A DNA stretch of 64,000 bases from a virus, in the IMG/VR virus record IMGVR_UViG_3300042259_000159; one strand, 5' to 3'. The translations under genes were made by a program, and so were the position numbers. The notes below the pieces were generated by a model. That model made no database searches. It was not told the DNA's origin and saw only the letters and a program-made list of their open reading frames with translations. Every line of letters starts with the position of its first letter. The stretch's first letter is position 1. Of this stretch, positions 1,024 to 64,000 are shown piece after piece.

Positions 1024-2010
1024 TTACGCGGGCATCAATTTACCCGCCCCGAAGTAGAAGGTCTCTCCTAGTCTTCGTCCTCTTGTGGCTTTTGTCAGGC
1101 CAAGCCAAGGCCACGGCCTTCCGTATTCGGGCTTAGTTCTTGCTTTTTCTTTTAAGGTAGAACCCTTGACGATACGGGTGTTCTTTGGGACTACAGTCTT
1201 CCACTTGGTGGCTTGCAGACACTCCGCTACCTTCCCTTCGAGGAGACAGTCATTAACATCCTTACACGGAAGCTCAGCAACATGCCCTCCGGGGAAGATA
1301 CGAACAAACTCTTCTGCTGCTTTCTGACCGGGTTCGTCCATGTCAGGGACGTACACTACCTTCTCAAACAGCTGACGAATCTTGTTTGCATGTTGGAGAA
1401 CAGCCTTCTGCACACTTCCTGCTCCTGAAGGAAGGCTCACAACAGCAGGAATGAGATGTTTGTATTGGGTGTTTGCTACGCTATCCCTGAGCATTTGATA
1501 CAAAGACATTGCATCAATCTCACCTTCGGTGATGTACAGAGTCTTTGCTCCAGCTGTGATAGCTTGTTTCCAACCAAAGAACGAAGCCCCTTTCAAAGAG
1601 CCTATAGCCCACATCCTCTTATCTTTCAGGATTCGTGCTTTATAAGCAGTGAGCTGCCCTCCTTCATCCGTGTAAGGAAAGAATACGATGTCAGGAGTAG
1701 AGCCATCCATAGGTGAGACACCTACTTTGACATTGAAATGCTCAAGGGTTTCTTTCCTCAGCTTTCTTGAAGGAAGAGGATGAGAGAGAAGACTAATTAT
1801 GTGTTTAATTTCTTCGTCTATCTCTTCCTTCGTCTTTTTAGCCACTACAGGAGTGTAGCCTTCAGGTTTGTCCTTATAGGGGTCAGGGACATATTTTCCA
1901 CAAGAGAAACAGTAGCCATCATAGCTGCCATCTTCTTGTAAAAACACTTGTAAACCTGAAGCTGTTCCACAAGAGTGAGGCAATTTTTCTACGCATACTC
2001 CTCGTTTCAT
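1024..2010 (-). CDS. DNA primase (zinc-binding domain + TOPRIM)
   Basis: Track ORF 328 aa. Cys-rich N-terminus (CGTASG...CFSCGKY) and TOPRIM acidic motifs (EGEIDAMS, DMDEPGQKAA). Confidence 0.75.
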   Translation of the reverse strand: MKRGVCVEKLPHSCGTASGLQVFLQEDGSYDGYCFSCGKYVPDPYKDKPEGYTPVVAKKTKEEIDEEIKHIISLLSHPLPSRKLRKETLEHFNVKVGVSPMDGSTPDIVFFPYTDEGGQLTAYKARILKDKRMWAIGSLKGASFFGWKQAITAGAKTLYITEGEIDAMSLYQMLRDSVANTQYKHLIPAVVSLPSGAGSVQKAVLQHANKIRQLFEKVVYVPDMDEPGQKAAEEFVRIFPGGHVAELPCKDVNDCLLEGKVAECLQATKWKTVVPKNTRIVKGSTLKEKARTKPEYGRPWPWLGLTKATRGRRLGETFYFGAGKLMPA

Positions 2011-20667: not shown

Positions 20668-21051
20668 ATGAGAACACTGGATAAACAAATAGGCGGGAGT
20701 CATTATACAAAACAAAAAATACAACCAATACAGGGGTATGCGCTCATTGGAATTGAAAAGCAAGCCTTTATGTCAAACATTATCAAGTACATTACGAGGT
20801 TTAAAGACAAGAACGGTCTTCAGGATATCCAAAAAGCAGACGACTATCTTGACCTTATGAAGCTGGGATTTGAAGGTGGTCTTGAGACAGATATGCTAAG
20901 CCTTAGAGAGTATTGTGAAGCAAATAAATTTACAGAAGATCAAACCTCTGTGGTATGCCTCTCTTGGCTCTACATGTTGACAGGAAGAGATGAATACTAC
21001 ACCTATGCAAAGCAGAAGATAGCGAATATACTCAAGGGGTTGGAAGATTAA
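20668..21051 (+). CDS. hypothetical protein
   Basis: Track ORF 127 aa with RBS aaagggaggt. Confidence 0.5.
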   Translation: MRTLDKQIGGSHYTKQKIQPIQGYALIGIEKQAFMSNIIKYITRFKDKNGLQDIQKADDYLDLMKLGFEGGLETDMLSLREYCEANKFTEDQTSVVCLSWLYMLTGRDEYYTYAKQKIANILKGLED

Positions 21052-22685
21052 TGGCAATAGGAGGTTATACAAATATGCGGAAAAGGTCTTTTGAGTATAC
21101 CCCGACAGAGACGGTTGAAGAGGTTAATAAGTACCCTTTTGCCATATGGGATGAGAGAGGAATTAGACCAGAAACATTCAAACGTTTTGGTGTAAGAATG
21201 GCCCGTTCCAGCGACGGTCTTTCTGTTTCAGCTATATATTACCCCTTTTATTCTCAGGACAAGAAGGTTTGTGGATATAAGAAGCGCGACCTGACAAAAG
21301 ACAAGCATGAGAGAGGCCACTTCACTGTGATAGGGCATGTCGGGGTAGATTGCATGCTGTTCGGGCAGAACCTTGCAAAAAAATCAAAGAAGGTTTTTAT
21401 TGTTGAGGGAGAAAACGATGTACTGGCTTCATATCAGGCCATGAAGGACTTCATCCTTAAAGGCAAGCCAGAATACAGAAACATGGAACCACCTGTGGTA
21501 GGCTTGTCATGTGGAACAGCAAATGCAGCAGCTGCTGTTGCAACAAACATAAGTTTTATAAACAGTTTTGATGAGGTCGTTCTTGGTCTTGACAATGATG
21601 AAGCAAACCTTGTCGAAAAAAGAAAAGGGGTGAAGAAGGGGAAAGAGGCTACGGAGGATGTTGCAGGCATCCTTATGCGCGACAATATCTTTGTGGCGCA
21701 CTACGAGGATGGATTTAAAGATCCAAACGATTATCTCATGCAAGGTAAGAGCACTCTTCTTGCAAACACGCTCATGTTTACAAAAAACAGGTATGTTGCA
21801 GAGAAGGTGGTGGGTGCCTCAAGCTTTTCTTTTGAGGAGATTATTGCTGAAAAAGAAAAAGGTGTTTATGTAGAGTCTTTCCCGAAAGTTATGGACATGA
21901 TATATGGGATAAGAAAAAGGGAGATGATTGTTATTACCTCAATGTCCGGTGTTGGTAAAAGCTATTTTACATCAGAAATAGGTTACAGTCTTCTGGAGAA
22001 AGGTGCCACAGTGGGAGCAATTTTCCTTGAAGAAGAGGGTAAAGAGACAGTGCAGAGGATTGTGGCAAGAAAGGCCAAGATAAACTTCAACAAGTTCAGA
22101 TTTGCTTGCAAGAGCCTTGCCTCTATTGAGCAGTTGAGGCAGGCATACGATTGGACAACGGGGAAAGATATAGGGAAAGAAAGGCTTTATACCCTTAACC
22201 ATTTTGGTTCCTTGCGTATTAATGACTTGATGAATAAGATAAAGTATTTGACATATGTTTGTAAATGTGACTATATCCTTCTTGACCATTTAAGTGCTGT
22301 TTTGTCTGGACAAGATAGTAAAGATGAACGCAAGGAATTTGATATCCTTATGACCGAGCTTGCTGCTTTTGTATCCTCAAACGATGTTGGCATCATTGCC
22401 GTGTCACATCTTAATAGAAATGCAGCAGAGGAGATTAGAGGTCTTTCAAACCTTAAAGAACCTAAATGGATATGCACCAAGAAGGAAGACCTCAGGGGTT
22501 CAGCGAGCCTTGAGCAGTTCTCATGGATAATTCTTGGGATTGACTTTGAGGTTAGACCTGATAGAACCAGAGGAAGAGCACGGATTACCGTTCTTAAAAA
22601 TAGACCTCTGGGAACAATCGGTGTTGGTGATGTTTTTATATTGGACAATGATACTGGCCTCTTTATTAACGCAGATATTGTATAG
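21051..22685 (+). CDS. primase-helicase (TOPRIM + DnaB-like helicase, T7 gp4-like)
   Basis: Track ORF 544 aa; TOPRIM VEGENDVLAS, Walker A ITSMSGVGKS, Walker B region CDYILLDHLS. Confidence 0.85.
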   Translation: MAIGGYTNMRKRSFEYTPTETVEEVNKYPFAIWDERGIRPETFKRFGVRMARSSDGLSVSAIYYPFYSQDKKVCGYKKRDLTKDKHERGHFTVIGHVGVDCMLFGQNLAKKSKKVFIVEGENDVLASYQAMKDFILKGKPEYRNMEPPVVGLSCGTANAAAAVATNISFINSFDEVVLGLDNDEANLVEKRKGVKKGKEATEDVAGILMRDNIFVAHYEDGFKDPNDYLMQGKSTLLANTLMFTKNRYVAEKVVGASSFSFEEIIAEKEKGVYVESFPKVMDMIYGIRKREMIVITSMSGVGKSYFTSEIGYSLLEKGATVGAIFLEEEGKETVQRIVARKAKINFNKFRFACKSLASIEQLRQAYDWTTGKDIGKERLYTLNHFGSLRINDLMNKIKYLTYVCKCDYILLDHLSAVLSGQDSKDERKEFDILMTELAAFVSSNDVGIIAVSHLNRNAAEEIRGLSNLKEPKWICTKKEDLRGSASLEQFSWIILGIDFEVRPDRTRGRARITVLKNRPLGTIGVGDVFILDNDTGLFINADIV

Positions 22686-48296: not shown

Positions 48297-48848
48297 TTAT
48301 TTAACTCCTGTGCTTCCGTGACCACCACGATTTTTACCACTGAGGCTATCAACCTGTTTCAAAACAAAACCCTCACTGCGCATCGTGGATGTTACCCTGA
48401 ATTGGCAAACCCTATCATTTTTTGCTACTCTCCCATCACGCATAGCTATGACAGGGAAAAGCCACTCATCCCCCTCACCGCAGTAGGTGTTATCAATAAT
48501 GCCCATACTATTAGTGAGAAGAAATCCATAGTTTTTAAAGGTGGAAGATCGGGGAACAACATGTGCCTCGCTTCCCTCTGGTAGCTGCACTGCTATGCCA
48601 AGGCGGATTCTTAAATAATCGTTAGGATAATAATACCAATATTGTCCAGTATTTACCAAGGGCTTAAAAATAATCTCCCCTGTGCTTTTACACATATACC
48701 CTTTCTCAATGCTAGAAACACGAAGGTCAATCCAATCCCCGATATCAATTACCTCCGGCGGGATAAGGTCTTTATCCAAAACCTTAAAACAAATCTCCTT
48801 TCTCAAAACTACCTCCTTTTTAGGGGGTCGTAACCCCCTTTTTTTCAA
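48297..48848 (-). CDS. dut: dUTP diphosphatase (dUTPase)
   Basis: Track ORF 183 aa; trimeric dUTPase motifs (DLRVSS, RSS, GIIDNTYCGE, RVCQ, RGGHGSTG). Confidence 0.8.
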   Translation of the reverse strand: MKKRGLRPPKKEVVLRKEICFKVLDKDLIPPEVIDIGDWIDLRVSSIEKGYMCKSTGEIIFKPLVNTGQYWYYYPNDYLRIRLGIAVQLPEGSEAHVVPRSSTFKNYGFLLTNSMGIIDNTYCGEGDEWLFPVIAMRDGRVAKNDRVCQFRVTSTMRSEGFVLKQVDSLSGKNRGGHGSTGVK

Positions 48849-51800
48849 CTAAATGCTTTTATCTACAAACTTTCTCTGTGGAAAATCAAATTCCCGCCTT
48901 GTTTTATTCCAAGCTTTTACGGGTGTAAAAAACCCAACAACCCTTGTCAGCTGTGTACTTATATCTTCCGAACATATGGGGCATGTACTGAAGGAACCCA
49001 TAGAGACATGGGAGTTGATACACTCAGAGTATACGGTATTAATGGCAAAATGTTCACATCCACAACCCAAAGCAAAACAGATAATTTTCTTGGCCTGCTC
49101 TCTTGTCAGCCTCTGCCCGACAGTGGCATGAACAATCCCCCCGCCTGTTAGGTTTTTAGTATATTCTCCGTCAATTCTGAGCCTGTCCCACAGAGATGCC
49201 TCTTCCCACAAAGGAACAAACTGGTTTGCATAGAGAGGGTATTCTATAAAAGTATCGCCGTGAATGATCTTATCTGCGCTGCAAACTTTTACAGCCATAC
49301 TCTCTGCTGGGATTTGCTCAATGTTGAAGACATATCCTGCGTTCTTCTTGGTATACAATCTAGCTTTTCTGTTAAGAAATGTCAAGATCTTTTTCTTCAA
49401 ATCCCCCTCAACACCGAACCTTTGTTTAAGAACCTTTTCACACTCGTAAAGACCAAGAATACCAAACGTTGAAAAGAGCCTGTTGAGGTCTATCCACCCA
49501 CGCGTTATAAAAGGCTGAAGACCTATTTGTTCAAGGACATGAATCAAGACCTTATGAGCAATCAGAATATCTTTAGCAGCCTCTACACGGTACGTGTATA
49601 TTTTCCAAAAATCATCAATACTCTCGGCCTCAATTGCCATCTTGTTGAAATTAAGAGTAACAACTCTATGGCTCCCGATGCTGGAAAGAACACCGGCACC
49701 GAAAGAATTGGAGGTGGATGCCACATCTAACATCTCTTCATCATTGATCAATCGGCAACAGCTAGCGATCTTTGTGCTCTCAGATGTGAAAATATTGTAG
49801 CGCGAAATGTCTCTATTAAGAAATATTTCCAAACTCTCTTCGTCTGCAAGGATGTAATCATCGCCGTCCTTAGTTTTTGAAATGTTCATCGTGCAAACAG
49901 GGAACCTGTAAGGCATCCCGTTATTTGAGGGATCTCCTTTATCAAAGATGTCTAGGAATATTTCCTGCAATTCAAAAACATAGTCAACACACTCTTCTAT
50001 ATCTACAACACCACCATCTGAAAACATCCACAAAAGATGTTCCTTTATGATGTACCTGAGTTTGTGTTTATCAAACACCGATACATTGGTAAAGGGACTC
50101 TCAACTCCGTCACGACTCAAATGGTTTACGCTGTGAATAAGCTGTTGAAACTCGTTTTCTATCTCTTTCCTCACAGCCTTATCGTTTTTAAGCACATCAA
50201 GGGGAACCTTATTCTTTATCATGAGAAGGTGAGCAACATCTATAAATACAGTACCTATGGCTAGAGCACCAGCAACATGCGATGACATTTGGTGGATTGT
50301 CTCACACAGGGCGGCAATATAACTATTAACTCTTTTTGCCGGTTTAGAGGGCAATACTCCAAAAGTTCTTCCTTCTGTAATGAGATTTGTTGCGTTTAAA
50401 GAATAACAATTATGTTGCACCATTCCGTTTGCATAAAAACGGCCCGTTGCTGTTGTCAAATCATATACGTCTTGAAGCTCCTCTCTAAGCTTTCTTGTAC
50501 TAGGAATGTCTTCAAGATTAAACCTGATGATTTTTACAACCCTGTTGCTTTCGCCCTTGGTGTTTGCTTTTTCATTATACTTATCATAGTCTTCTTTATG
50601 CATCTTCATCTTATCAGAAAGATCAACCATCTTATTCGTACTTGACGGGACAAAGGAAAGGGCATAAATCGAATTAGAAATATCACTCCCTTTTATCCTT
50701 TTTCTAAGGCATCGAATACCTTCAATGCCTCTAAGGACGTCATAAAGTGTGTTTATTACTGCCATAGACTGCAAACAAATCTCCACCCTGCCATTCTTTT
50801 TGTAGGTATATCCGTCCGCGTCTACAAGCCCCGCAACAAGTGCCTCTACAGAATCATTTGTCCAAGAGAGGATGTTCTTAGGAAGAACCTTTGTGAAGCT
50901 ATTTTCTTTGTTCCCGAAACCAAAAAAGGCACTTACAAGAAAATTCATATCATAAGAAGACCAATTAATCTGTCTCTCGACTTTATCACTGGGCTTAAAA
51001 AGATTCGCATCAGGAAACAAGTCTTTTATGATACTATAAATTCTTGAGTTATCAATATCGTTTTGATAAACACTGCAAAGCGTTCCCCCTCTTGTAAATC
51101 TGAAAGAGCCTTTTATGTCCTTACCGTTCATTACGCCATCATCAACACAATACCCTTCAAAGTTCCCATCACCAAGCATAAAGCCAAGAAGGTAGGCCAG
51201 CTTTTCTGGAACAATTATTGTTTTTTCCACGGAGGGCAAACAAGTCTCTGTCAAAACAGCATCCCCAACAGAAAGTTCTGAGGCTATTTTTTCAGTTCCA
51301 TCTTCCATATAGATTGGGTGGTTGTCTGTTACCAAAGCAAAGTGCCCTGCCTCTGTCTGATACAAAGAGAATCCTGTATCCGTTTTATGCTTGATAATAC
51401 GTTGTACAGCAACCCATCCATTGTTTGTATCCCAAACCTCTATATTAACTTTTTCACTCACATTGCAGGCCAACTTACCGGAACGACCTTTTGCGGTGTT
51501 CTTGTTAGTGATGTTCGCACTCACATTATTACGCAGCATTGCTGTTGTAATCTCTAGATCTCTTGTAAGGCCTTTTGTGTTAATTTCCTCATGCGTACCC
51601 CTATTTTCGGAGTGTATTGCAAACATATTGAAAAGCTTTTTAAGAGGAATACAAATAATCTCTCCGTTAATTCTGACAAAAACAGGCGTGTTTCCATAAT
51701 ACGAATATGGAAGGTTTAGCTTCGTGCTGTCGGAGATGGGAAGACTGAAATCCAACATTTCTCCTATAAGCCTTTTAGCCCTCTTCTTGCCGTAGAGTTC

Positions 51801-52151
51801 CTTCATAACACGGTAGAGGAAATCGTACCCTGCAATTTTTTTCTGGGGGGCACTTGCCTCACTCTGTATTCCGGCAATTGTCTTCTCATTCTTATTAGCA
51901 TTGTCATCAATAGAGACATCATTAATGTTTGCATTTAATTGTTTTTGAAACATCTTGAGAAAGTCTGTATTGTCCTGCGAAAGACCATGCAGACGCATAA
52001 GTTTTTCAGCTTTTGTATCAATCTCTTCTTGAGAAAGGGTTGTTTTACGAGAAAGATTCCTTTTCAAAGCCTTAAGCATCTGTTTCCGTGTGTATTCAAT
52101 CTCAGCATCATTTGTAAAAGATGAAGAAAAACCTTTAGCTATGCTATTCAA
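48849..52151 (-). CDS. nrdD: anaerobic ribonucleoside-triphosphate reductase (class III) carrying an intein
   Basis: C-terminus has four-Cys zinc ribbon (CINSH...CPIC) and glycyl-radical motif TRVVGF...WNKTRREF. Start uncertain: track begins at TTG 52220; TTG at 52151 after AAGGAG is preferred here. Confidence 0.8.
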   Translation of the reverse strand: MNSIAKGFSSSFTNDAEIEYTRKQMLKALKRNLSRKTTLSQEEIDTKAEKLMRLHGLSQDNTDFLKMFQKQLNANINDVSIDDNANKNEKTIAGIQSEASAPQKKIAGYDFLYRVMKELYGKKRAKRLIGEMLDFSLPISDSTKLNLPYSYYGNTPVFVRINGEIICIPLKKLFNMFAIHSENRGTHEEINTKGLTRDLEITTAMLRNNVSANITNKNTAKGRSGKLACNVSEKVNIEVWDTNNGWVAVQRIIKHKTDTGFSLYQTEAGHFALVTDNHPIYMEDGTEKIASELSVGDAVLTETCLPSVEKTIIVPEKLAYLLGFMLGDGNFEGYCVDDGVMNGKDIKGSFRFTRGGTLCSVYQNDIDNSRIYSIIKDLFPDANLFKPSDKVERQINWSSYDMNFLVSAFFGFGNKENSFTKVLPKNILSWTNDSVEALVAGLVDADGYTYKKNGRVEICLQSMAVINTLYDVLRGIEGIRCLRKRIKGSDISNSIYALSFVPSSTNKMVDLSDKMKMHKEDYDKYNEKANTKGESNRVVKIIRFNLEDIPSTRKLREELQDVYDLTTATGRFYANGMVQHNCYSLNATNLITEGRTFGVLPSKPAKRVNSYIAALCETIHQMSSHVAGALAIGTVFIDVAHLLMIKNKVPLDVLKNDKAVRKEIENEFQQLIHSVNHLSRDGVESPFTNVSVFDKHKLRYIIKEHLLWMFSDGGVVDIEECVDYVFELQEIFLDIFDKGDPSNNGMPYRFPVCTMNISKTKDGDDYILADEESLEIFLNRDISRYNIFTSESTKIASCCRLINDEEMLDVASTSNSFGAGVLSSIGSHRVVTLNFNKMAIEAESIDDFWKIYTYRVEAAKDILIAHKVLIHVLEQIGLQPFITRGWIDLNRLFSTFGILGLYECEKVLKQRFGVEGDLKKKILTFLNRKARLYTKKNAGYVFNIEQIPAESMAVKVCSADKIIHGDTFIEYPLYANQFVPLWEEASLWDRLRIDGEYTKNLTGGGIVHATVGQRLTREQAKKIICFALGCGCEHFAINTVYSECINSHVSMGSFSTCPICSEDISTQLTRVVGFFTPVKAWNKTRREFDFPQRKFVDKSI
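50409..51467 (-). mobile_element. intein with LAGLIDADG homing-endonuclease domain inside nrdD
   Basis: In-frame insert with block B GHFALVTDNH, two LAGLIDADG motifs (LLGFMLGDGNF, LVAGLVDADGY), C-terminal block VYDLTTATGRFYANGMVQHN followed by Cys. N-terminal boundary (CNVSEK vs earlier Cys) uncertain. Confidence 0.6.
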
Positions 52152-52659
52152 AGCAGTAAACTCCTTCTTTTGTAAGTTTAACATAATTATTATTATAAAG
52201 TTCTTGGTTAGACGAACCAAGTACGAGTTTTGTCCTTTGCCCTTTTGTTGTATCTGACTGGTGCAGTTCTTTTATATACTCTCCTGTTTTTATAAATTTG
52301 AAACCGTTAAGATTAAGGTATTTAACAGTGTCAATATCGTATCCAGTATAAATACATATGTTAAAACACCCACCGTATTGTTCTAAGAACTGTGCTGTAA
52401 ACCCTCTGTTGCAGGAGGCTAGCGGATCTCCACCAAGAAGTACAATATTATTTGTGCGGTATTTTAAGGTCTCCTGTTTACAATGGTTGTAGAAGTCTTC
52501 AATGGAAAATTCCACACCACCCTGATATTCAGGGTTTTGCAGGGAGGGGTTATGACACCCCTTACAGGAAAAATCACACCCACACATAAAAAGACTTACT
52601 GCCCACCCATCCTTTGAGGGGTAGTCTGTAAATGTCATCTCAGAACCTGCAAATCTCAT
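52144..52659 (-). CDS. nrdG: anaerobic RNR activating enzyme (radical SAM)
   Basis: Track ORF 171 aa; radical-SAM Cys motif CDFSCKGC (C-x3-C-x2-C) near the N-terminus. Confidence 0.8.
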   Translation of the reverse strand: MRFAGSEMTFTDYPSKDGWAVSLFMCGCDFSCKGCHNPSLQNPEYQGGVEFSIEDFYNHCKQETLKYRTNNIVLLGGDPLASCNRGFTAQFLEQYGGCFNICIYTGYDIDTVKYLNLNGFKFIKTGEYIKELHQSDTTKGQRTKLVLGSSNQELYNNNYVKLTKEGVYCFE

Positions 52660-55122: not shown

Positions 55123-55206
55123 TGGTAGGAGAAGAGAGATTCGAACTCTCAAGGAATAATCCGTCGAGGCTTAAACTCGATGTGTTTACCATTTCACCAT
55201 TCTCCC
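55123..55206 (-). tRNA. tRNA-Leu (anticodon TAA), type II, CCA encoded
   Basis: Hand-folded cloverleaf: acceptor GGGAGAA/TTCTCCT, anticodon stem TCGAG/CTCGA with loop TTTAAGC, long variable arm, T-arm GAGAG-TTCGAAT-CTCTC. Confidence 0.7.
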
Positions 55207-55245
55207 GTATTTTTTATCTACCATTCCGCCATTCCCGCATTTATT

Positions 55246-55323
55246 TGGTACCCACTGTGAGATTCGAACCCACACTAATCAGTTTCTAAGACTGATGCCT
55301 CTGCCAAGTTGGGCTATACCAGT
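55246..55323 (-). tRNA. aberrant tRNA-like gene (anticodon TAG, type I architecture, poorly paired acceptor stem)
   Basis: Good D-, anticodon (TCAGT-CTTAGAA-ACTGA) and T-arms, but 5' acceptor ACTGGTA mispairs with the adjacent 3' strand AGTGGGT. Confidence 0.4.
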
Positions 55324-55581
55324 ATTATGCTTATTATTTTATTTTGAAAGGCCATATGTATACACATATATATATATACATATATATATGTATAGAGCAA
55401 CCAAAATGGTTAAATAAAAAGGTGTTTTGTGGAGACACCAAACTCCTCCAGTTTTAGTGATCTGGAAACAATAAGCGGCGCAGGTGCTCTTTAAAACACG
55501 TGCTACCAAGCGTATAAATTGTCTAGGGGATTTCACCAAACACATTATGTTATTGGAGGGATCTTTCCCTAGACTCAGTAA

Positions 55582-55654
55582 AGCTCCTGACAGGACTTGA
55601 ACCCGCAACCGGCTGATTACAAATCAGCTGCTCTGCCAGTTGAGCTACAGGAGC
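55582..55654 (-). tRNA. tRNA-Thr (anticodon TGT), no encoded CCA
   Basis: Acceptor GCTCCTG/CAGGAGC, D-arm GCTC...GAGC, anticodon loop TTTGTAA, T-loop TTCAAGT. Confidence 0.7.
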
Positions 55655-55658
55655 AGAA

Positions 55659-55730
55659 CAGAGGGAGAAGGATTCGAACCTTCGAATGACGGGACCAAAA
55701 CCCGTTGCCTTACCGCTTGGCTACCCCTCT
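55659..55730 (-). tRNA. tRNA-Gln (anticodon TTG), no encoded CCA
   Basis: Acceptor AGAGGGG/TCCCTCT, anticodon stem ACGGG/CCCGT with loop TTTTGGT, T-arm GAAGG-TTCGAAT-CCTTC. Confidence 0.7.
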
Positions 55731-55738
55731 AAATTTTT

Positions 55739-55815
55739 TGGCTCCGGCGGCAGGATTTGAACCTACATTCGCAATGGTTAACAGCCATTTGCCTTACCAA
55801 TTCGGCGACACCGGA
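55739..55815 (-). tRNA. tRNA-Asn (anticodon GTT), CCA encoded
   Basis: Acceptor TCCGGTG/CGCCGGA, anticodon stem AATGG/CCATT with loop CTGTTAA, T-arm GTAGG-TTCAAAT-CCTGC. Confidence 0.7.
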
Positions 55816-55860
55816 ATGAACTTTTTATTTGTTATCAGCATTGTTTTGCTTTATTTTAAA

Positions 55861-55939
55861 TGGTCTCGGTGATTAGATTTGAACTAATGATTATTCCTGC
55901 TCCCAAAGCAGGTGCCATACCAAGCTAGGCGACACCGAG
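55861..55939 (-). tRNA. tRNA-Pro (anticodon TGG), CCA encoded
   Basis: Acceptor CTCGGTG/CACCGAG, anticodon stem CCTGC/GCAGG with loop TTTGGGA, T-arm ATTAG-TTCAAAT-CTAAT. Confidence 0.65.
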
Positions 55940-56574: not shown

Positions 56575-56860
56575 GTTGGTGCAGATTGTGAACGTACCCC
56601 CGCCTATAGAGGCGGAAGCTTCCTGCTTCAGCGAGAACAGCACCAGTAACTCCGAAGAGTTGTGGCGAATTACACTCTCTCCACAGGCGTAAATTCCCGT
56701 GCGACCCACGGTACTTTATGAGTTACGCTAGGCAGATATTCGCCCAGCTTCTTCTCTAATATTTATTGCAGCGTTCTTGTCACGGTTATGATGACTGCCA
56801 CACTTAAGGCAATCCCATTCCCGCACAGACAAGTCTTTGGTATCCTTGTTCTGGTAGCCA
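56575..56860 (-). ncRNA. candidate TnpB guide RNA (omega/reRNA) region at the element right end
   Basis: By analogy with IS200/IS605 TnpB systems the guide RNA overlaps the tnpB 3' end and runs to the right-end hairpin (56600-56615). Not folded or aligned. Confidence 0.3.
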
Positions 56861-57965
56861 CAGACATGGCATAGCTGACTGCTTGGATACCATTTGTCTA
56901 TCTTGATAAGTTGCTTACCCTGCCATGCAAGTTTGTATTTCAGCATACTTGTGAACATGCTCCAGCCGTTGTCGGATATGGATTTACCAAAGTTGAACTT
57001 GCCACCCTTCTTTCGCTTCGCCATGTCCTTTACGCTAATGTCCTCTATGCCAATCACATCATAGCGGTCTGCAAGATAACGAGCTTTCTTATGCAGGAAG
57101 TCGCGGCGTTGATTAGCAATTTTCTCATGGAGTACAGCCAAACGTAGTCTTTGTTTATTCCTATTACGGCTCCCTTTTTGTCTCTTGGAGAGTTTTCTTT
57201 GTGCCTTGATCAATCTCTTTTCGGCTTCCCGTAAGAAATTTGGATAATCGGCGTTGTCCTCATCGGAAGCAACATACATCCCGTGCATAGCAAAATCCAA
57301 TCCAAGAAAATTCTTCGGTATGATGGGAAGTATTTGGTTTTCATACTCCACCAAAATACTAATATAGTATTTTCCTGACGGTGTTTTACTTATGGTTACA
57401 GTCTTTATGGTGCTATTCTCCATCAATGGACGATGCAGACACAGCTTTACCCAACCTATTTTCGGCAGCTTGACTTTGTTTCCCTCGATTCTTACAGAGC
57501 CATGTTGGTTGTTCGTAGAATATGAAGCATGACCCGCTTTCTTCGACTTGAAGCGTGGCTTGCAAAAATGCTTCCTATTGCTCCAAAAGTTGTTATACGC
57601 CTTGTTCAGGTTTATTTGGGCATTGGCGAGAGCAAGGCTGTCAACCTCTTTCAGCCAAGGAAACTCTTTCTTGTACTGTGCAGGTGTGTTGTTCAGCCTC
57701 TCTCCTGTTTCCTTATAGTGATCAAGACGATCTCCAAGCATCTTGTTATAGATGAATCTGGCACTGCCGAAAGTCTTGGCAAACATAATCTTCTGTTCAA
57801 TTGTCGGGTAGAGTCTATATCGGTATGCCTTATTCACTATAATCACCTGCCTTGATTTTCTATGTATTTACGAATTGTCTCAAACGGAGCAATTATCTGG
57901 CTCAACTACTTACGTAAATTCGCTAGACACACCTTCATCCCCCACCTTAGAGGTGGAGGGCTTCT
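56590..57965 (-). mobile_element. IS200/IS605-family insertion element carrying tnpB only
   Basis: tnpB flanked by similar imperfect palindromes: cccgcctatagaggcgg (56600-56615) and ccaccttagaggtgg (57942-57956). No Y1 tnpA. Inserted between tandem tRNA-Leu genes and the rest of the tRNA array. Confidence 0.65.
56728..57846 (-). CDS. tnpB: TnpB (RuvC-like RNA-guided endonuclease, IS605 OrfB family)
   Basis: Track ORF 372 aa; N-terminal YRYRLYPT, RuvC-like region, C-terminal zinc finger CHVCGY...CLKCG. Confidence 0.85.
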   Translation of the reverse strand: MIIVNKAYRYRLYPTIEQKIMFAKTFGSARFIYNKMLGDRLDHYKETGERLNNTPAQYKKEFPWLKEVDSLALANAQINLNKAYNNFWSNRKHFCKPRFKSKKAGHASYSTNNQHGSVRIEGNKVKLPKIGWVKLCLHRPLMENSTIKTVTISKTPSGKYYISILVEYENQILPIIPKNFLGLDFAMHGMYVASDEDNADYPNFLREAEKRLIKAQRKLSKRQKGSRNRNKQRLRLAVLHEKIANQRRDFLHKKARYLADRYDVIGIEDISVKDMAKRKKGGKFNFGKSISDNGWSMFTSMLKYKLAWQGKQLIKIDKWYPSSQLCHVCGYQNKDTKDLSVREWDCLKCGSHHNRDKNAAINIREEAGRISA

Positions 57966-58022: not shown

Positions 58023-58109
58023 TGGTGCCCAATGCAGGACTCGAACCTGCACGCCATTTCAGGCAGGAGGGCTTAAACCTCGTGTGTCTACCAATTCCAC
58101 CAATCGGGC
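58023..58109 (-). tRNA. tRNA-Leu (anticodon TAA), type II, CCA encoded
   Basis: Acceptor GCCCGAT/ATTGGGC, anticodon loop TTTAAGC, long variable arm, T-arm GCAGG-TTCGAGT-CCTGC. Confidence 0.65.
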
Positions 58110-58118
58110 TAAAATCTT

Positions 58119-58202
58119 TGGTGCCTCAGACAGGATTCGAACCTGCACGGATCTCTCCACTTGGTCCTAAGCCAAGCGTGTCTGCCATTCCACCACTGAG
58201 GC
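58119..58202 (-). tRNA. tRNA-Leu (anticodon TAG), type II, CCA encoded
   Basis: Acceptor GCCTCAG/CTGAGGC, anticodon stem CTTGG/CCAAG with loop CTTAGGA, long variable arm, T-arm GCAGG-TTCGAAT-CCTGT. Confidence 0.7.
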
Positions 58203-63037: not shown

Positions 63038-63350
63038 GAACATTTTAATGTTTTTCCGGCAGATGCCTTACGAACATCTGTGAACATTTTGGGTGCCGCA
63101 GGTTCGGGAAAGTCATACATAATGAATATGATACCTTTGAGGTATGTCGATTGCCCCAACTTTAGGGGGATTGTCTTCCGAAGGGAAACGACACAGCTTA
63201 CAGGTGAAGGGGGGATGTGGGATACAGCAACGGAGATATACTCTGAGCTGCCTAAAAATATCAGGCCCAAAATATTGAAACATAACCTGAGAATGATTTT
63301 TCCGAATGGGGCAAAAATTAAGTTTTCACACATGGAAAATGATAATGATT
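63038..63350 (+). CDS. terL: terminase large subunit, exon with Walker A
   Basis: Frame opens after the intron core; Walker A GAAGSGKSY. Exon ends are approximate because the reading frame stays open into the flanking intron sequence. Confidence 0.5.
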
Positions 63351-63585
63351 TCAGGAAACATCAAGGGTTAATTAGTAGCCCCTTGTGTTGGTGACAGCGC
63401 AAGCAAACTAACCTAATTCGGTGGAAGCCCAAACATGTAGGATGTGGGTGATACCGAGCAAGCCACGGCGTGTGTAACGACTAGTTCTTAGGAACGTAGG
63501 CCCAAGCGGGTCGAAACGGTTAGCATCTTATTAAGATGAAGATATAGTCTACTCTGCATGGAAACATGCAGCGGACACTTTATGT
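63350..63585 (+). mobile_element. group I intron core (candidate), copy 2
   Basis: R-like gtaacgactagttc (63474-63487), S-like gaagatatagtctac (about 63537-63551), P9-like hairpin ctgcatggaaacatgcag (63553-63570). Confidence 0.5.
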
Positions 63586-63594
63586 GTCGGGCAG

Positions 63595-63860
63595 ATGTTA
63601 GCGCCATCTGTTGAATATTATGTACAATATACCCTGATATGCTTTGATGAGGCAACACATTTCACTTTCCAACAAGTTGAATACTTAATGTCACGTATGA
63701 GAAGTAAAAGTAAGTATGCTTCTCGTATGGTTCTGTCGTGGATTACGCGACATGTATGGCGAAAGCTGTACTGGCAACTGTGTGAACTCAGGGAAACCTT
63801 AGCTGCTGCAATTGGGCAGAGGAAGAAGGCAATCCTGAGCGAAGCCTTCCCACCGGGAAG
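63595..63860 (+). CDS. terL: terminase large subunit, exon with Walker B
   Basis: Walker B ICFDEATHF shortly after the start of track ORF 63595-63888; 3' boundary approximate. Confidence 0.5.
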
Positions 63861-64000
63861 GAACGTGCAACGACCATCGAAAGCGTAACACCTGTTACAG
63901 TGAGTAGAGTACACCACACATGTGTGGTGGAAGCGCACAGCCCCTAACATGTAACGATGAGGGTGAAGATATGGTCTGAACCTACAGAAATGTAGAAAAA
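63860..64000 (+). mobile_element. group I intron core (candidate), copy 3, running off the window
   Basis: R-like gtgcaacgaccatcga (63864-63879), S-like gaagatatggtctgaac (63965-63981), P9-like hairpin ctacagaaatgtag (63982-63995). Confidence 0.45.

What the first reader, a model, noticed from the sequence alone, without database searches (positions are those of the whole stretch)
50409..51467. Intein with LAGLIDADG endonuclease domain inside anaerobic ribonucleotide reductase NrdD
The 1123-codon nrdD ORF contains an in-frame insert with intein block B (GHFALVTDNH), two LAGLIDADG motifs and a C-terminal block ending VQHN followed by Cys. The extein C-terminus keeps the NrdD zinc ribbon and glycyl-radical motif. 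Phage nrdD genes are usually interrupted by group I introns rather than inteins.
Basis: partly seen in the sequence, partly recalled or inferred. Interest (0 to 1): 0.6.

Follow-up and report, generated by a model that had tools for sequence, protein, structure and literature searches.

The report
Homing intein in phage NrdD
An uncultured phage's anaerobic ribonucleotide reductase gene carries a real, apparently intact 432-residue self-splicing intein with a homing endonuclease, inserted just before a catalytic cysteine; this is a new member of a widespread intein family, not a new kind of element.

Summary
The finding is real. The nrdD gene (window 48849..52151, minus strand) contains an in-frame intein with a LAGLIDADG endonuclease domain. 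Intein-free homologs and a 96%-identical sister contig join ...LPY|CYS... exactly. The intein is therefore 50409..51704: 432 residues, starting at Ser (SYYGNTPVF), not at Cys252.

All canonical class-1 splicing residues are present and invariant in 22 same-site homologs: Ser1, Thr126-x-x-His129, Asp415, His431-Asn432 and Cys+1. Both LAGLIDADG motifs keep their acidic residues. An AlphaFold model (pLDDT 85.5) matches endonuclease-bearing inteins (TliVMA, PI-PfuI, PI-SceI).

The +1 Cys corresponds to Thermotoga NrdD Cys125, a cysteine conserved in all ribonucleotide reductases. Two pairs of near-identical alleles, one with and one without the intein (96% nt and 99.9% aa extein identity), indicate recent gain or loss.

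The same allele occurs in many metagenomic phages and in bacterial and archaeal MAGs. At least 34 of 62 NrdD relatives carry inteins, at four or more sites. Verdict: a new member of a known kind, of modest interest. Splicing and cleavage are inferred, not tested.

The parts
48849..52151 (-). nrdD precursor gene (1100 codons plus stop) from the likely start TTG 52151. The mechanical ORF extends to TTG 52220.
   Evidence: ORF list. AAGGAG at 52162..52167 lies upstream of TTG 52151, and homologs start MNSIAKGF / MTIVKNF. The exact 1100-aa product is a called gene in Logan SRR35174882. Pfam NRDD E=2e-67. PDB Thermotoga NrdD 4COI E=3.5e-56.
51705..52151 (-). N-extein (149 codons), ending ...STKLNLPY. 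The last Tyr corresponds to TmNrdD Tyr124.
   Evidence: In intein-free homologs, blastp of the N-extein ends exactly where the C-extein begins. Alignment to 4COI. Tyr124/Cys125 roles from PMC4493059.
50409..51704 (-). Intein, 432 codons: SYYGNTPVF...FYANGMVQHN.
   Evidence: The insertion is exact relative to the empty allele in L001 (CCATAT|TGTTAT) and to 27 intein-free proteins. There are 21 same-site homologs at 32-47% identity. AlphaFold pLDDT 85.5 / pTM 0.86. Foldseek hits to TliVMA, PI-PfuI, PI-TkoII and PI-SceI inteins.
51663..51704 (-). Intein block A (SYYGNTPVFVRING) with the Ser1 nucleophile.
   Evidence: S1, Y2, Y3 and T6 are invariant in the 17- and 12-sequence alignments.
51450..51623 (-). 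Variable extension of the splicing domain between block A and block N2 (about intein residues 28-85).
   Evidence: Poorly conserved and variable in length in the alignment, and partly deleted in P0010/12/13/14. pLDDT is below 50 for residues 56-78.
51318..51347 (-). Intein block B (GHFALVTDNH) with the T-x-x-H motif (Thr126, His129).
   Evidence: Coordinates. T126, H129 and P130 are invariant.
50550..51227 (-). LAGLIDADG homing-endonuclease domain (about intein residues 160-385). Motif 1 is LAYLLGFMLGDGN (51162..51200) and motif 2 is LVAGLVDADGY (50808..50840).
   Evidence: Coordinates. G178-D179-G180, G292, D295 and G298 are invariant and D297 is >=90% conserved. Pfam LAGLIDADG_3 / Hom_end give weak hits below the cut-off. 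Foldseek matches to I-DmoI and intein endonucleases.
50409..50468 (-). Intein blocks F and G (VYDLTTATGRFYANGMVQHN): Asp415, penultimate His431 and terminal Asn432.
   Evidence: V413, Y414, D415, T417, T418, G421, F423, M428, H431 and N432 are invariant. phmmer match to the Neq Pol C-intein 5OXX.
50406..50408 (-). +1 Cys codon (first C-extein residue). It corresponds to TmNrdD Cys125, T4 Cys79 and E. coli Cys175.
   Evidence: Alignment to 4COI places query residues 604-605 on chain residues 124-125, 'YC'. [quoted passage not shown]
48849..50408 (-). C-extein (519 codons plus stop). It holds the SCCR motif, the zinc-site CPIC motif (48972..48983) and the glycyl-radical motif RVVGF (48930..48944).
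49755..49760 (-). Unoccupied second intein site, between the two Cys of SC|CRL. It is occupied by a different 338-aa intein in sister contig L001 and in Clostridium phage c-st NrdD.
   Evidence: blastn of L001 against the window shows a 1 kb insertion in L001 at window 49755/49758. Junctions are IASC|CFKGDQ...DTHN|CRLIN in L001 and ALASC|CFDGQQ...ITHN|CRLTSS in c-st.
52144..52659 (-). nrdG (activating radical-SAM enzyme) immediately upstream. Its stop codon overlaps the nrdD start by 8 nt.
   Evidence: Pfam Fer4_12 E=2.7e-13 and Radical_SAM. Sequence read.

Best explanation
The phage nrdD gene encodes a 1100-residue precursor in which a 432-residue class-1 intein interrupts the active site. 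The intein combines a HINT splicing domain with a nested two-motif LAGLIDADG homing endonuclease. It lies between the Tyr and Cys that correspond to Tyr124 and Cys125 of Thermotoga NrdD.

Inferred protein-splicing mechanism, from canonical intein chemistry:
1. After translation, Ser1 of the intein undergoes an N-to-O acyl shift.
2. The thiol of the +1 Cys attacks that ester, forming the branched intermediate.
3. Asn432 cyclises, helped by His431, and releases the intein.
4. An S-to-N shift restores the native Tyr-Cys peptide bond.
The products would be a 668-residue active NrdD and a free intein of about 49 kDa.

Inferred DNA-level mechanism: the free intein acts as a site-specific endonuclease. 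It would cut intein-less nrdD alleles at the sequence spanning ...AACCTTCCATAT|TGTTATTCTTTAAAC... during co-infection. Recombinational repair would then copy the intein gene into the cut allele (homing).

Shown here: the exact insertion, conservation of every catalytic residue, the predicted fold, and the existence of near-identical alleles with and without the intein. Inferred, not shown: actual splicing, actual DNA cleavage and the extent of the recognition site.
For: - Exact in-frame insertion. Intein-free homologs (P0018-20, 25, 26, 28, 29 and others) and L001 join ...LPY|CYS... with no gap. At the DNA level the L001 empty site is identical to the window's joined flanks. After in-silico removal of both inteins the two genes are 96.06% identical over 2007 nt.
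- Catalytic set. S1, T126, H129, D415, H431, N432 and the +1 Cys are invariant in 22 same-site inteins that are otherwise only 32-47% identical. This indicates selection for splicing.
- Endonuclease. GDG (D179) and DxDG (D295, D297) are conserved.
- Fold. The AF2 model has pLDDT 85.5 and pTM 0.86. Top Foldseek hits are the TliVMA intein (E=3.7e-20), PI-PfuI, PhoVMA, PI-TkoII and PI-SceI, followed by I-DmoI and mini-inteins.
- Extein integrity. NRDD Pfam E=2e-67. The alignment to 4COI runs through SCCR, the Zn site and the glycyl-radical loop. nrdG is adjacent and translationally coupled.
- Mobility. The window and L001 differ by this intein. A second lineage has P0015 (1125 aa, with intein) and P0218 (673 aa, without) at 99.9% extein identity. 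Four alleles (P0010/12/13/14) carry internal deletions in the endonuclease domain, as expected for a homing cycle.
- No group I intron was detected in nrdD.
Against: - No experiment was done: splicing and cleavage are inferred from sequence and predicted structure only.
- Pfam Intein_splicing (31.3 bits) and LAGLIDADG_3 (19.8 bits) fall below their gathering thresholds (35.8 and 22.5). Family assignment therefore rests on motifs, homologs and fold rather than on curated cut-offs.
- No near-identical copy of this intein was found in a divergent extein. The next best is 47-48% identical, so recent horizontal homing by this particular copy is not shown.
- The difference between the window and L001 could equally reflect precise loss through recombination with an intein-less allele.
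- The region of intein residues 56-78 is modelled with low confidence.
Confidence: 0.9

Rival explanations
1. The intein still splices, but its endonuclease is no longer active. It would be a vertically inherited passenger at the late stage of the homing cycle rather than a currently mobile element.
For: No near-identical copy occurs in other exteins; the best other intein is 47-48% identical. Related alleles with deleted endonuclease cores exist (P0010/12/13/14), showing that decay happens in this family. Pfam LAGLIDADG hits are weak.
Against: Both LAGLIDADG motifs and their acidic residues are intact and conserved. The endonuclease domain is full length and confidently folded. Two independent pairs of near-identical alleles with and without the intein exist.
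Confidence: 0.3
2. The insertion is a dead, non-splicing element, so nrdD is a pseudogene in this phage.
For: No functional data exist. Pfam Intein_splicing is below its gathering score.
Against: The 1100-codon frame is open. All splicing residues are invariant among homologs as little as 32% identical. The extein is conserved, with 13 amino-acid differences against 79 nucleotide differences versus L001. nrdG is intact and coupled.
Confidence: 0.03
3. One reading: the intein begins at Cys252 (window 51467), and the preceding 79 residues are an NrdD-specific extein segment.
For: A Cys followed by a beta-strand-like stretch (CNVSEKVNIEVWD) superficially resembles block A. The Pfam Intein_splicing match starts at residue 258 of the ORF.
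Against: Intein-free homologs and L001 lack residues 173-251 as well. Cys252 is not conserved in same-site inteins, whereas Ser-Tyr-Tyr at 173-175 is invariant. The Pfam match starts at profile position 30-31, meaning the first ~30 profile positions lie upstream. The Thermotoga NrdD alignment leaves room for only 5 residues between query 167 and the Cys.
Confidence: 0.01
4. The inserted region is a lineage-specific functional domain of NrdD, not a mobile element.
For: None beyond its in-frame position.
Against: The region is absent from 27 close homologs and from alleles 96% and 99.9% identical in the extein. It has an intein/LAGLIDADG fold. It splits the invariant active-site Tyr-Cys dipeptide.
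Confidence: 0.005

Closest known systems
Endonuclease-containing class-1 inteins with solved structures (TliVMA/PhoVMA inteins 7QSS/7QSU/7QST, PI-PfuI 1DQ3, PI-TkoII 2CW7, PI-SceI 1VDE)
   Same: HINT splicing domain with a nested two-motif LAGLIDADG endonuclease. TxxH in block B, His-Asn at the C-terminus and a nucleophilic +1 residue. These are the best Foldseek matches (E 3.7e-20 to 1e-8), with weak sequence matches as well.
   Different: Only 11-16% sequence identity. The host protein differs (NrdD rather than V-ATPase, RNR class II or DNA polymerase). It has Ser1 where PI-SceI has Cys1. It carries an extra variable segment of about 55 residues between blocks A and N2.
Same-site NrdD inteins in uncultured phages and MAGs (P0002-P0017, P0021-23, P0060-61; IMG/VR loci L010-L022; MAG loci L005-L008)
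   Same: Identical insertion point (...PY|S...HN|C...), invariant Ser-Tyr start, and the same block F/G sequence VYDITTxTGxF..HN. Identity is 23-48% over the full length. The window's intein is a member of this allele family.
   Different: None of these is named or characterised. The window copy is less than 50% identical to every other sampled copy except its own source contigs.
Clostridium phage c-st / D-1873 NrdD intein (reported as 'putative intein' in PMC3653736)
   Same: A phage class III RNR of the SCCR (NrdDh) type interrupted by an in-frame LAGLIDADG intein whose +1 residue is an active-site-motif cysteine.
   Different: The c-st intein sits at another site, between the two Cys of SCCR (ALASC|C...THN|CRL). 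The PY|C site is uninterrupted in c-st. It starts with Cys, not Ser. It is allelic to the second intein in L001, not to the window's intein.
Group I introns in phage nrdD (T4 nrdD intron; Lactococcus phage 949)
   Same: Selfish, homing-endonuclease-associated interruptions of the same gene that are removed without harming the product.
   Different: Those are removed at the RNA level. Here the frame is open across the element, and Rfam finds no intron in nrdD. The same window does have two group I introns, but they are in terL.

Membership tests
Class-1 intein (HINT domain, canonical four-step splicing) | In-frame insertion that is absent from orthologous proteins, with exteins contiguous in intein-free alleles | tested here: met
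   N- and C-extein blastp segments abut exactly in 27 homologs. The empty DNA site in L001 is identical to the joined flanks.
Class-1 intein (HINT domain, canonical four-step splicing) | Nucleophile (Cys/Ser/Thr) at intein position 1 (block A) | tested here: met
   Ser1, invariant in all 22 same-site inteins.
Class-1 intein (HINT domain, canonical four-step splicing) | Block B T-x-x-H | tested here: met
   Thr126-Asp-Asn-His129, invariant T and H.
Class-1 intein (HINT domain, canonical four-step splicing) | Block F Asp, and block G penultimate His plus terminal Asn | tested here: met
   D415, H431 and N432 are invariant. The segment matches the Neq Pol C-intein.
Class-1 intein (HINT domain, canonical four-step splicing) | Cys/Ser/Thr at C-extein position +1 | tested here: met
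   The Cys codon at 50406..50408 is conserved in all homologs, with or without the intein.
Class-1 intein (HINT domain, canonical four-step splicing) | HINT fold | tested here: met
   This rests on a predicted model only: pLDDT 85.5. Foldseek probability is 1.00 to intein structures, including mini-inteins 5O9I and 2LCJ.
Class-1 intein (HINT domain, canonical four-step splicing) | Curated Pfam Intein_splicing (PF14890) gathering score | tested here: not met
   31.3 bits against a cut-off of 35.8 (E=2e-7). Several same-site homologs do carry precomputed PF14890 hits. This reflects a divergent sequence and does not contradict membership.
Class-1 intein (HINT domain, canonical four-step splicing) | Protein splicing actually occurs | not testable with these tools
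   Requires expression followed by SDS-PAGE or mass spectrometry.
LAGLIDADG homing endonuclease (monomeric, two-motif) | Two LAGLIDADG motifs, each with a conserved acidic residue | tested here: met
   LAYLLGFMLGDGN (D179) and LVAGLVDADGY (D295, D297). G-D-G and D..G are invariant.
LAGLIDADG homing endonuclease (monomeric, two-motif) | alpha-beta-beta-alpha-beta-beta-alpha double-domain fold | tested here: met
   The predicted model matches I-DmoI (TM to target 0.55-0.67) and intein endonuclease domains.
LAGLIDADG homing endonuclease (monomeric, two-motif) | Site-specific cleavage of the intein-less allele, and homing | not testable with these tools
   Only indirect evidence exists: intein-present and intein-absent alleles at 96% nt and 99.9% aa extein identity.
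Class III ribonucleotide reductase NrdD, SCCR-type (NrdDh of Aurelius et al. 2015) | NRDD domain, C-terminal glycyl-radical motif and Zn site, and adjacent NrdG activase | tested here: met
   PF13597 E=2e-67. Alignment to 4COI runs through RVVGF and CPIC. nrdG is upstream.
Class III ribonucleotide reductase NrdD, SCCR-type (NrdDh of Aurelius et al. 2015) | SCCR motif, and Tyr preceding the conserved Cys (Tyr124-Cys125 in TmNrdD) | tested here: met
   IASCCRL is present. The spliced junction gives PY-C. Definitions come from PMC4493059.

The most novel reading that the evidence does not exclude
The intein may be more than a parasite: it could make NrdD maturation conditional. Its +1 nucleophile is the redox-active catalytic Cys of an oxygen-sensitive enzyme. 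Oxidation of that thiol would block transesterification, so active NrdD would be released only in a reduced, anoxic cell. The alternative occupancy of the two catalytic-cysteine sites (PY|C here, SC|C in the sister phage) would then be two versions of the same redox switch.
Probability: 0.05. Interest if true: 0.6.

Novelty: new member of a known kind. Interest (0 to 1): 0.3.

Why it matters
- Annotation. The gene should be described as a 1100-aa NrdD precursor with one 432-aa intein. The mature enzyme is 668 aa.
- Biology. This is a clear natural example of inteins targeting the two catalytic-cysteine motifs of a class III RNR. Sister phages 96% identical in the extein carry an intein at one site or the other, never both in this pair.
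- A usable experimental system. Such pairs supply matched donor and recipient alleles, with empty sites of known sequence. They could be used to test splicing, endonuclease specificity and co-conversion in an uncultured gut or environmental phage lineage.
- Literature correction. Phage nrdD is not interrupted mainly by introns in metagenomic phages. In this NrdD clade inteins are the rule rather than the exception.
- No new mechanism or family is implied.

Tried and rejected
- Megablast of the nrdD region and tblastn of the intein against the 50,697 INPHARED phage records found nothing. The closest cultured-phage NrdD exteins are only 24-32% identical, so no annotated relative could be used.
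- A word-indexed homolog search with the intein alone returned nothing at E<=1e-5, although full-length searches and the exhaustive HMMER search found many relatives. I treat as a limit of candidate selection, not as evidence of absence.
- A PDB sequence search with the intein gave only marginal hits (E 0.02-1). The fold search was needed.
- Literature searches for 'Mja RNR' and 'MJ0832' found nothing. My recollection that Methanocaldococcus jannaschii NrdD carries two inteins could not be verified and is not used as evidence.
- Cluster look-ups gave no source names for the homologs.
- I considered and rejected three readings: an intein start at Cys252, the insertion as a conserved NrdD domain, and the interruption as a group I intron (no Rfam hit in 48849..52220).
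- I did not attempt an intein-versus-extein phylogeny or dN/dS analysis.
Full report
**The observation.** The minus strand of the window carries a 1123-codon mechanical ORF at 48849..52220.
- GHFALVTDNH at 51318..51347
- LAYLLGFMLGDGN at 51162..51200
- LVAGLVDADGY at 50808..50840
- VQHN|C, with the Asn codon at 50409..50411 and the Cys codon at 50406..50408
- CPIC at 48972..48983
- RVVGF at 48930..48944

Pfam calls the C-terminal 510 residues NRDD (E=2e-67). It also gives sub-threshold Intein_splicing and LAGLIDADG_3 hits in the middle. The neighbouring genes on the same strand are thyX, nrdG, nrdD, a dUTPase-like gene and an ATP-dependent DNA ligase.

**Gene start.** The true start of nrdD is probably TTG 52151. 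An AAGGAG lies 10 nt upstream, and the start overlaps the nrdG stop codon by 8 nt. The closest homologs begin at the equivalent residue. The resulting 1100-aa protein is exactly a called gene in public assemblies.

**Boundaries.** The closest solved structure is Thermotoga maritima NrdD (4COI/4U3E, E about 4e-56). It aligns as query 73-167 to chain 25-118 and query 604-1121 to chain 124-646. This leaves room for only about five extein residues before the Cys.

A homolog search returned 62 NrdD relatives. Separate blastp of the N-extein, insert and C-extein against them gave a clear result. In 27 proteins of 646-712 aa, the N-extein match ends exactly one residue before the C-extein match begins (...PY|C...). 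In 21 proteins, a homologous 332-452-aa insert at 32-47% identity sits at exactly that point.

The insert is therefore residues 173-604 of the mechanical ORF. That is window 50409..51704: 432 residues, starting SYYGNTPVF and ending GMVQHN. The N-terminal junction (51467, Cys252) is 79 residues too late. Cys252 lies in a variable, non-conserved stretch, whereas Ser-Tyr-Tyr at the real start is invariant.

**An empty allele at the DNA level.** Protein P0001 is encoded on ENA contig NODE_1720 (locus L001), which is collinear with the window at 92-97% nucleotide identity. In L001 the sequence ...AACCTTCCATAT|TGTTATTCTTTAAAC... is uninterrupted. It is identical to the window's joined flanks, and the window has exactly 1296 extra bases.

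Conversely, L001 has a different 338-aa intein (CFKGDQ...DTHN) between the two cysteines of IASC|CRLIN. That site is empty in the window at 49755/49758. With both inteins removed in silico, the two nrdD genes are 96.06% identical (79 of 2007 nt; 13 amino-acid differences).

A second, independent pair exists in another phage lineage. P0015 (1125 aa, with a site-a intein) and P0218 (673 aa, without) are 99.9% identical over the extein.

**Anatomy of the intein.** In alignments of same-site inteins the invariant positions are:
- S1, Y2, Y3, T6 (block A)
- T126, H129, P130 (block B, TxxH)
- G178-D179-G180 (LAGLIDADG 1)
- G292, D295, G298, with D297 at >=90% (LAGLIDADG 2)
- V413-Y414-D415, T417, T418 (block F)
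- H431-N432 (block G)

An AlphaFold2 model built on that alignment has mean pLDDT 85.5 and pTM 0.86. Low confidence is confined to residues 56-78 and 191-199.

Foldseek against the PDB ranks endonuclease-bearing inteins first: TliVMA 3.7e-20, PI-PfuI 4.9e-17, PhoVMA, PI-TkoII and PI-SceI. These are followed by I-DmoI and mini-inteins.

Residues about 28-85 form a variable extension between blocks A and N2. Four alleles (P0010/12/13/14) have lost part of it along with about 90 residues of the endonuclease core. That is the degenerate state expected in a homing cycle.

**Where it sits in the enzyme.** The +1 Cys aligns with Cys125 of TmNrdD and the -1 Tyr with Tyr124. Aurelius et al. [quoted passage not shown] They also state that Tyr124 and the SCCR motif are hallmarks of subclass NrdDh. 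The intein therefore splits the active-site Tyr-Cys dipeptide and uses the catalytic cysteine as its +1 nucleophile. The second site, occupied in L001, splits the SCCR motif. The NrdD intein of Clostridium phage c-st, noted as 'putative' in PMC3653736, is at that second site (ALASC|C...ITHN|CRLTSS). Its PY|C site is intact.

**Distribution.** An exhaustive HMMER search of 1.84 billion representatives with the intein alone found 198 proteins at E<=1e-3, 55 at E<=1e-10 and 29 at E<=1e-30. Most strong hits are NrdD proteins with the intein at the same position, and several carry two or three inteins.

At least four insertion sites are used in this NrdD clade, at spliced-protein positions of about 149|150, 195, 250 and 366|367. 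At least 34 of the 62 first-search relatives carry an intein.

Pattern scans found the same PY|S...HN|C allele in about 20 IMG/VR viral contigs. They also found it in MAGs labelled Thermoplasmatales, Thermoprotei and Lachnospiraceae, and in one unclassified bacterium.

The window's own intein occurs at 100% identity in IMGVR_UViG_3300042267_000152 (91.6 kb), probably the source contig. No cultured phage in INPHARED is close.

**Mechanism (inferred).** Canonical class-1 splicing would proceed in four steps: Ser1 N-O shift, attack by the Cys+1 thiol, Asn432 cyclisation and S-N shift. This restores ...LNLPY-CYSLN... in a 668-aa NrdD, which NrdG can then activate. The released 432-aa protein would act as a LAGLIDADG endonuclease on intein-less alleles and spread by recombinational repair during co-infection. 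What is shown is the insertion, the conservation, the fold and the recent presence/absence polymorphism. Activity itself is not shown.

**Comparison and novelty.** This is an ordinary bifunctional intein in kind. RNRs are among the proteins most often invaded by inteins (PMC4760082). Phage nrdD inteins have been noted before (PMC3653736). Intein_splicing domains in nrdD of gut Jug phages are reported in PMC12880540. I found no paper that names the PY|C site allele, but absence from the searchable library is weak evidence. I rate it a new member of a known kind, with interest 0.3.

**Residual oddities.**
- Mismatches between the window and L001 are sparse around site a (1 within +/-75 nt, against about 6 expected at 3.9%).
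- They are dense, and all synonymous, around site d (12 within +/-55 nt, against about 4 expected).
- The dense tract fits co-conversion from a divergent donor when one lineage gained or lost the site-d intein. I did not test this further.

Noticed in passing
window 63080-63997 (+): The large terminase gene appears to be split by two group I introns. Rfam RF00028 hits lie at 63359-63571 (76 bits) and 63728-63997 (77.5 bits). The upstream ORF 63080..63394 matches PHROG terminase large subunit (E=4.7e-39) and has a Walker A motif. A Walker B-like exon (ICFDEATHF...) lies between the introns. Exact splice sites were not determined, and the gene runs off the window.
   Followed up: partly
L001 1838-2851, and window 49755-49760 (-): The sister contig carries a different 338-aa LAGLIDADG intein (CFKGDQ...DTHN) between the two Cys of the SCCR motif, which is an empty site in the window. 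It is the same site as the Clostridium phage c-st NrdD intein. The two catalytic-cysteine motifs of this NrdD are therefore both intein targets, occupied alternately in phages whose nrdD exteins are 96% identical.
   Followed up: yes
window nrdD extein versus L001 (spliced coordinates; window about 49700-49810 and 50330-51780): Mismatch density is uneven. There are 12 synonymous differences within +/-55 nt of the SC|C site but only 1 within +/-75 nt of the PY|C site, against a background of 3.9%. This may be a co-conversion tract around the second intein site.
   Followed up: partly
window 55123-55939 and 58023-58202 (-): There are eight tRNA genes in two clusters: Leu-taa twice, Leu-tag twice, Thr-tgt, Gln-ttg, Asn-gtt and Pro-tgg. 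The duplicated Leu pair flanks a 372-aa ORF (56728..57846) that matches a PHROG transposase family (E=2.5e-119). This suggests a duplication or an inserted element.
   Followed up: no
window about 48297-48303, versus L001 4312-4857: L001 has an extra MT-A70-type methyltransferase gene (181 aa) between the dUTPase-like gene and the DsbA-like gene. It is absent from the window, giving another indel between the two otherwise collinear phages.
   Followed up: no
homologs P0008 (1632 aa), P0068 (1987 aa), P0074 (1753 aa): Some NrdD relatives carry three large insertions (at sites of about 150, 195-250 and 360 in spliced numbering). More than half of the polypeptide is then intein.
   Followed up: partly
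window 1024-2010 (-) and 21051-22685 (+): Two separate ORFs both match the PHROG DNA primase/helicase family phrog_239 (E=5e-82 and 1.6e-135), on opposite strands about 19 kb apart. I did not examine whether this is a duplication, a split gene or two paralogs.
   Followed up: no
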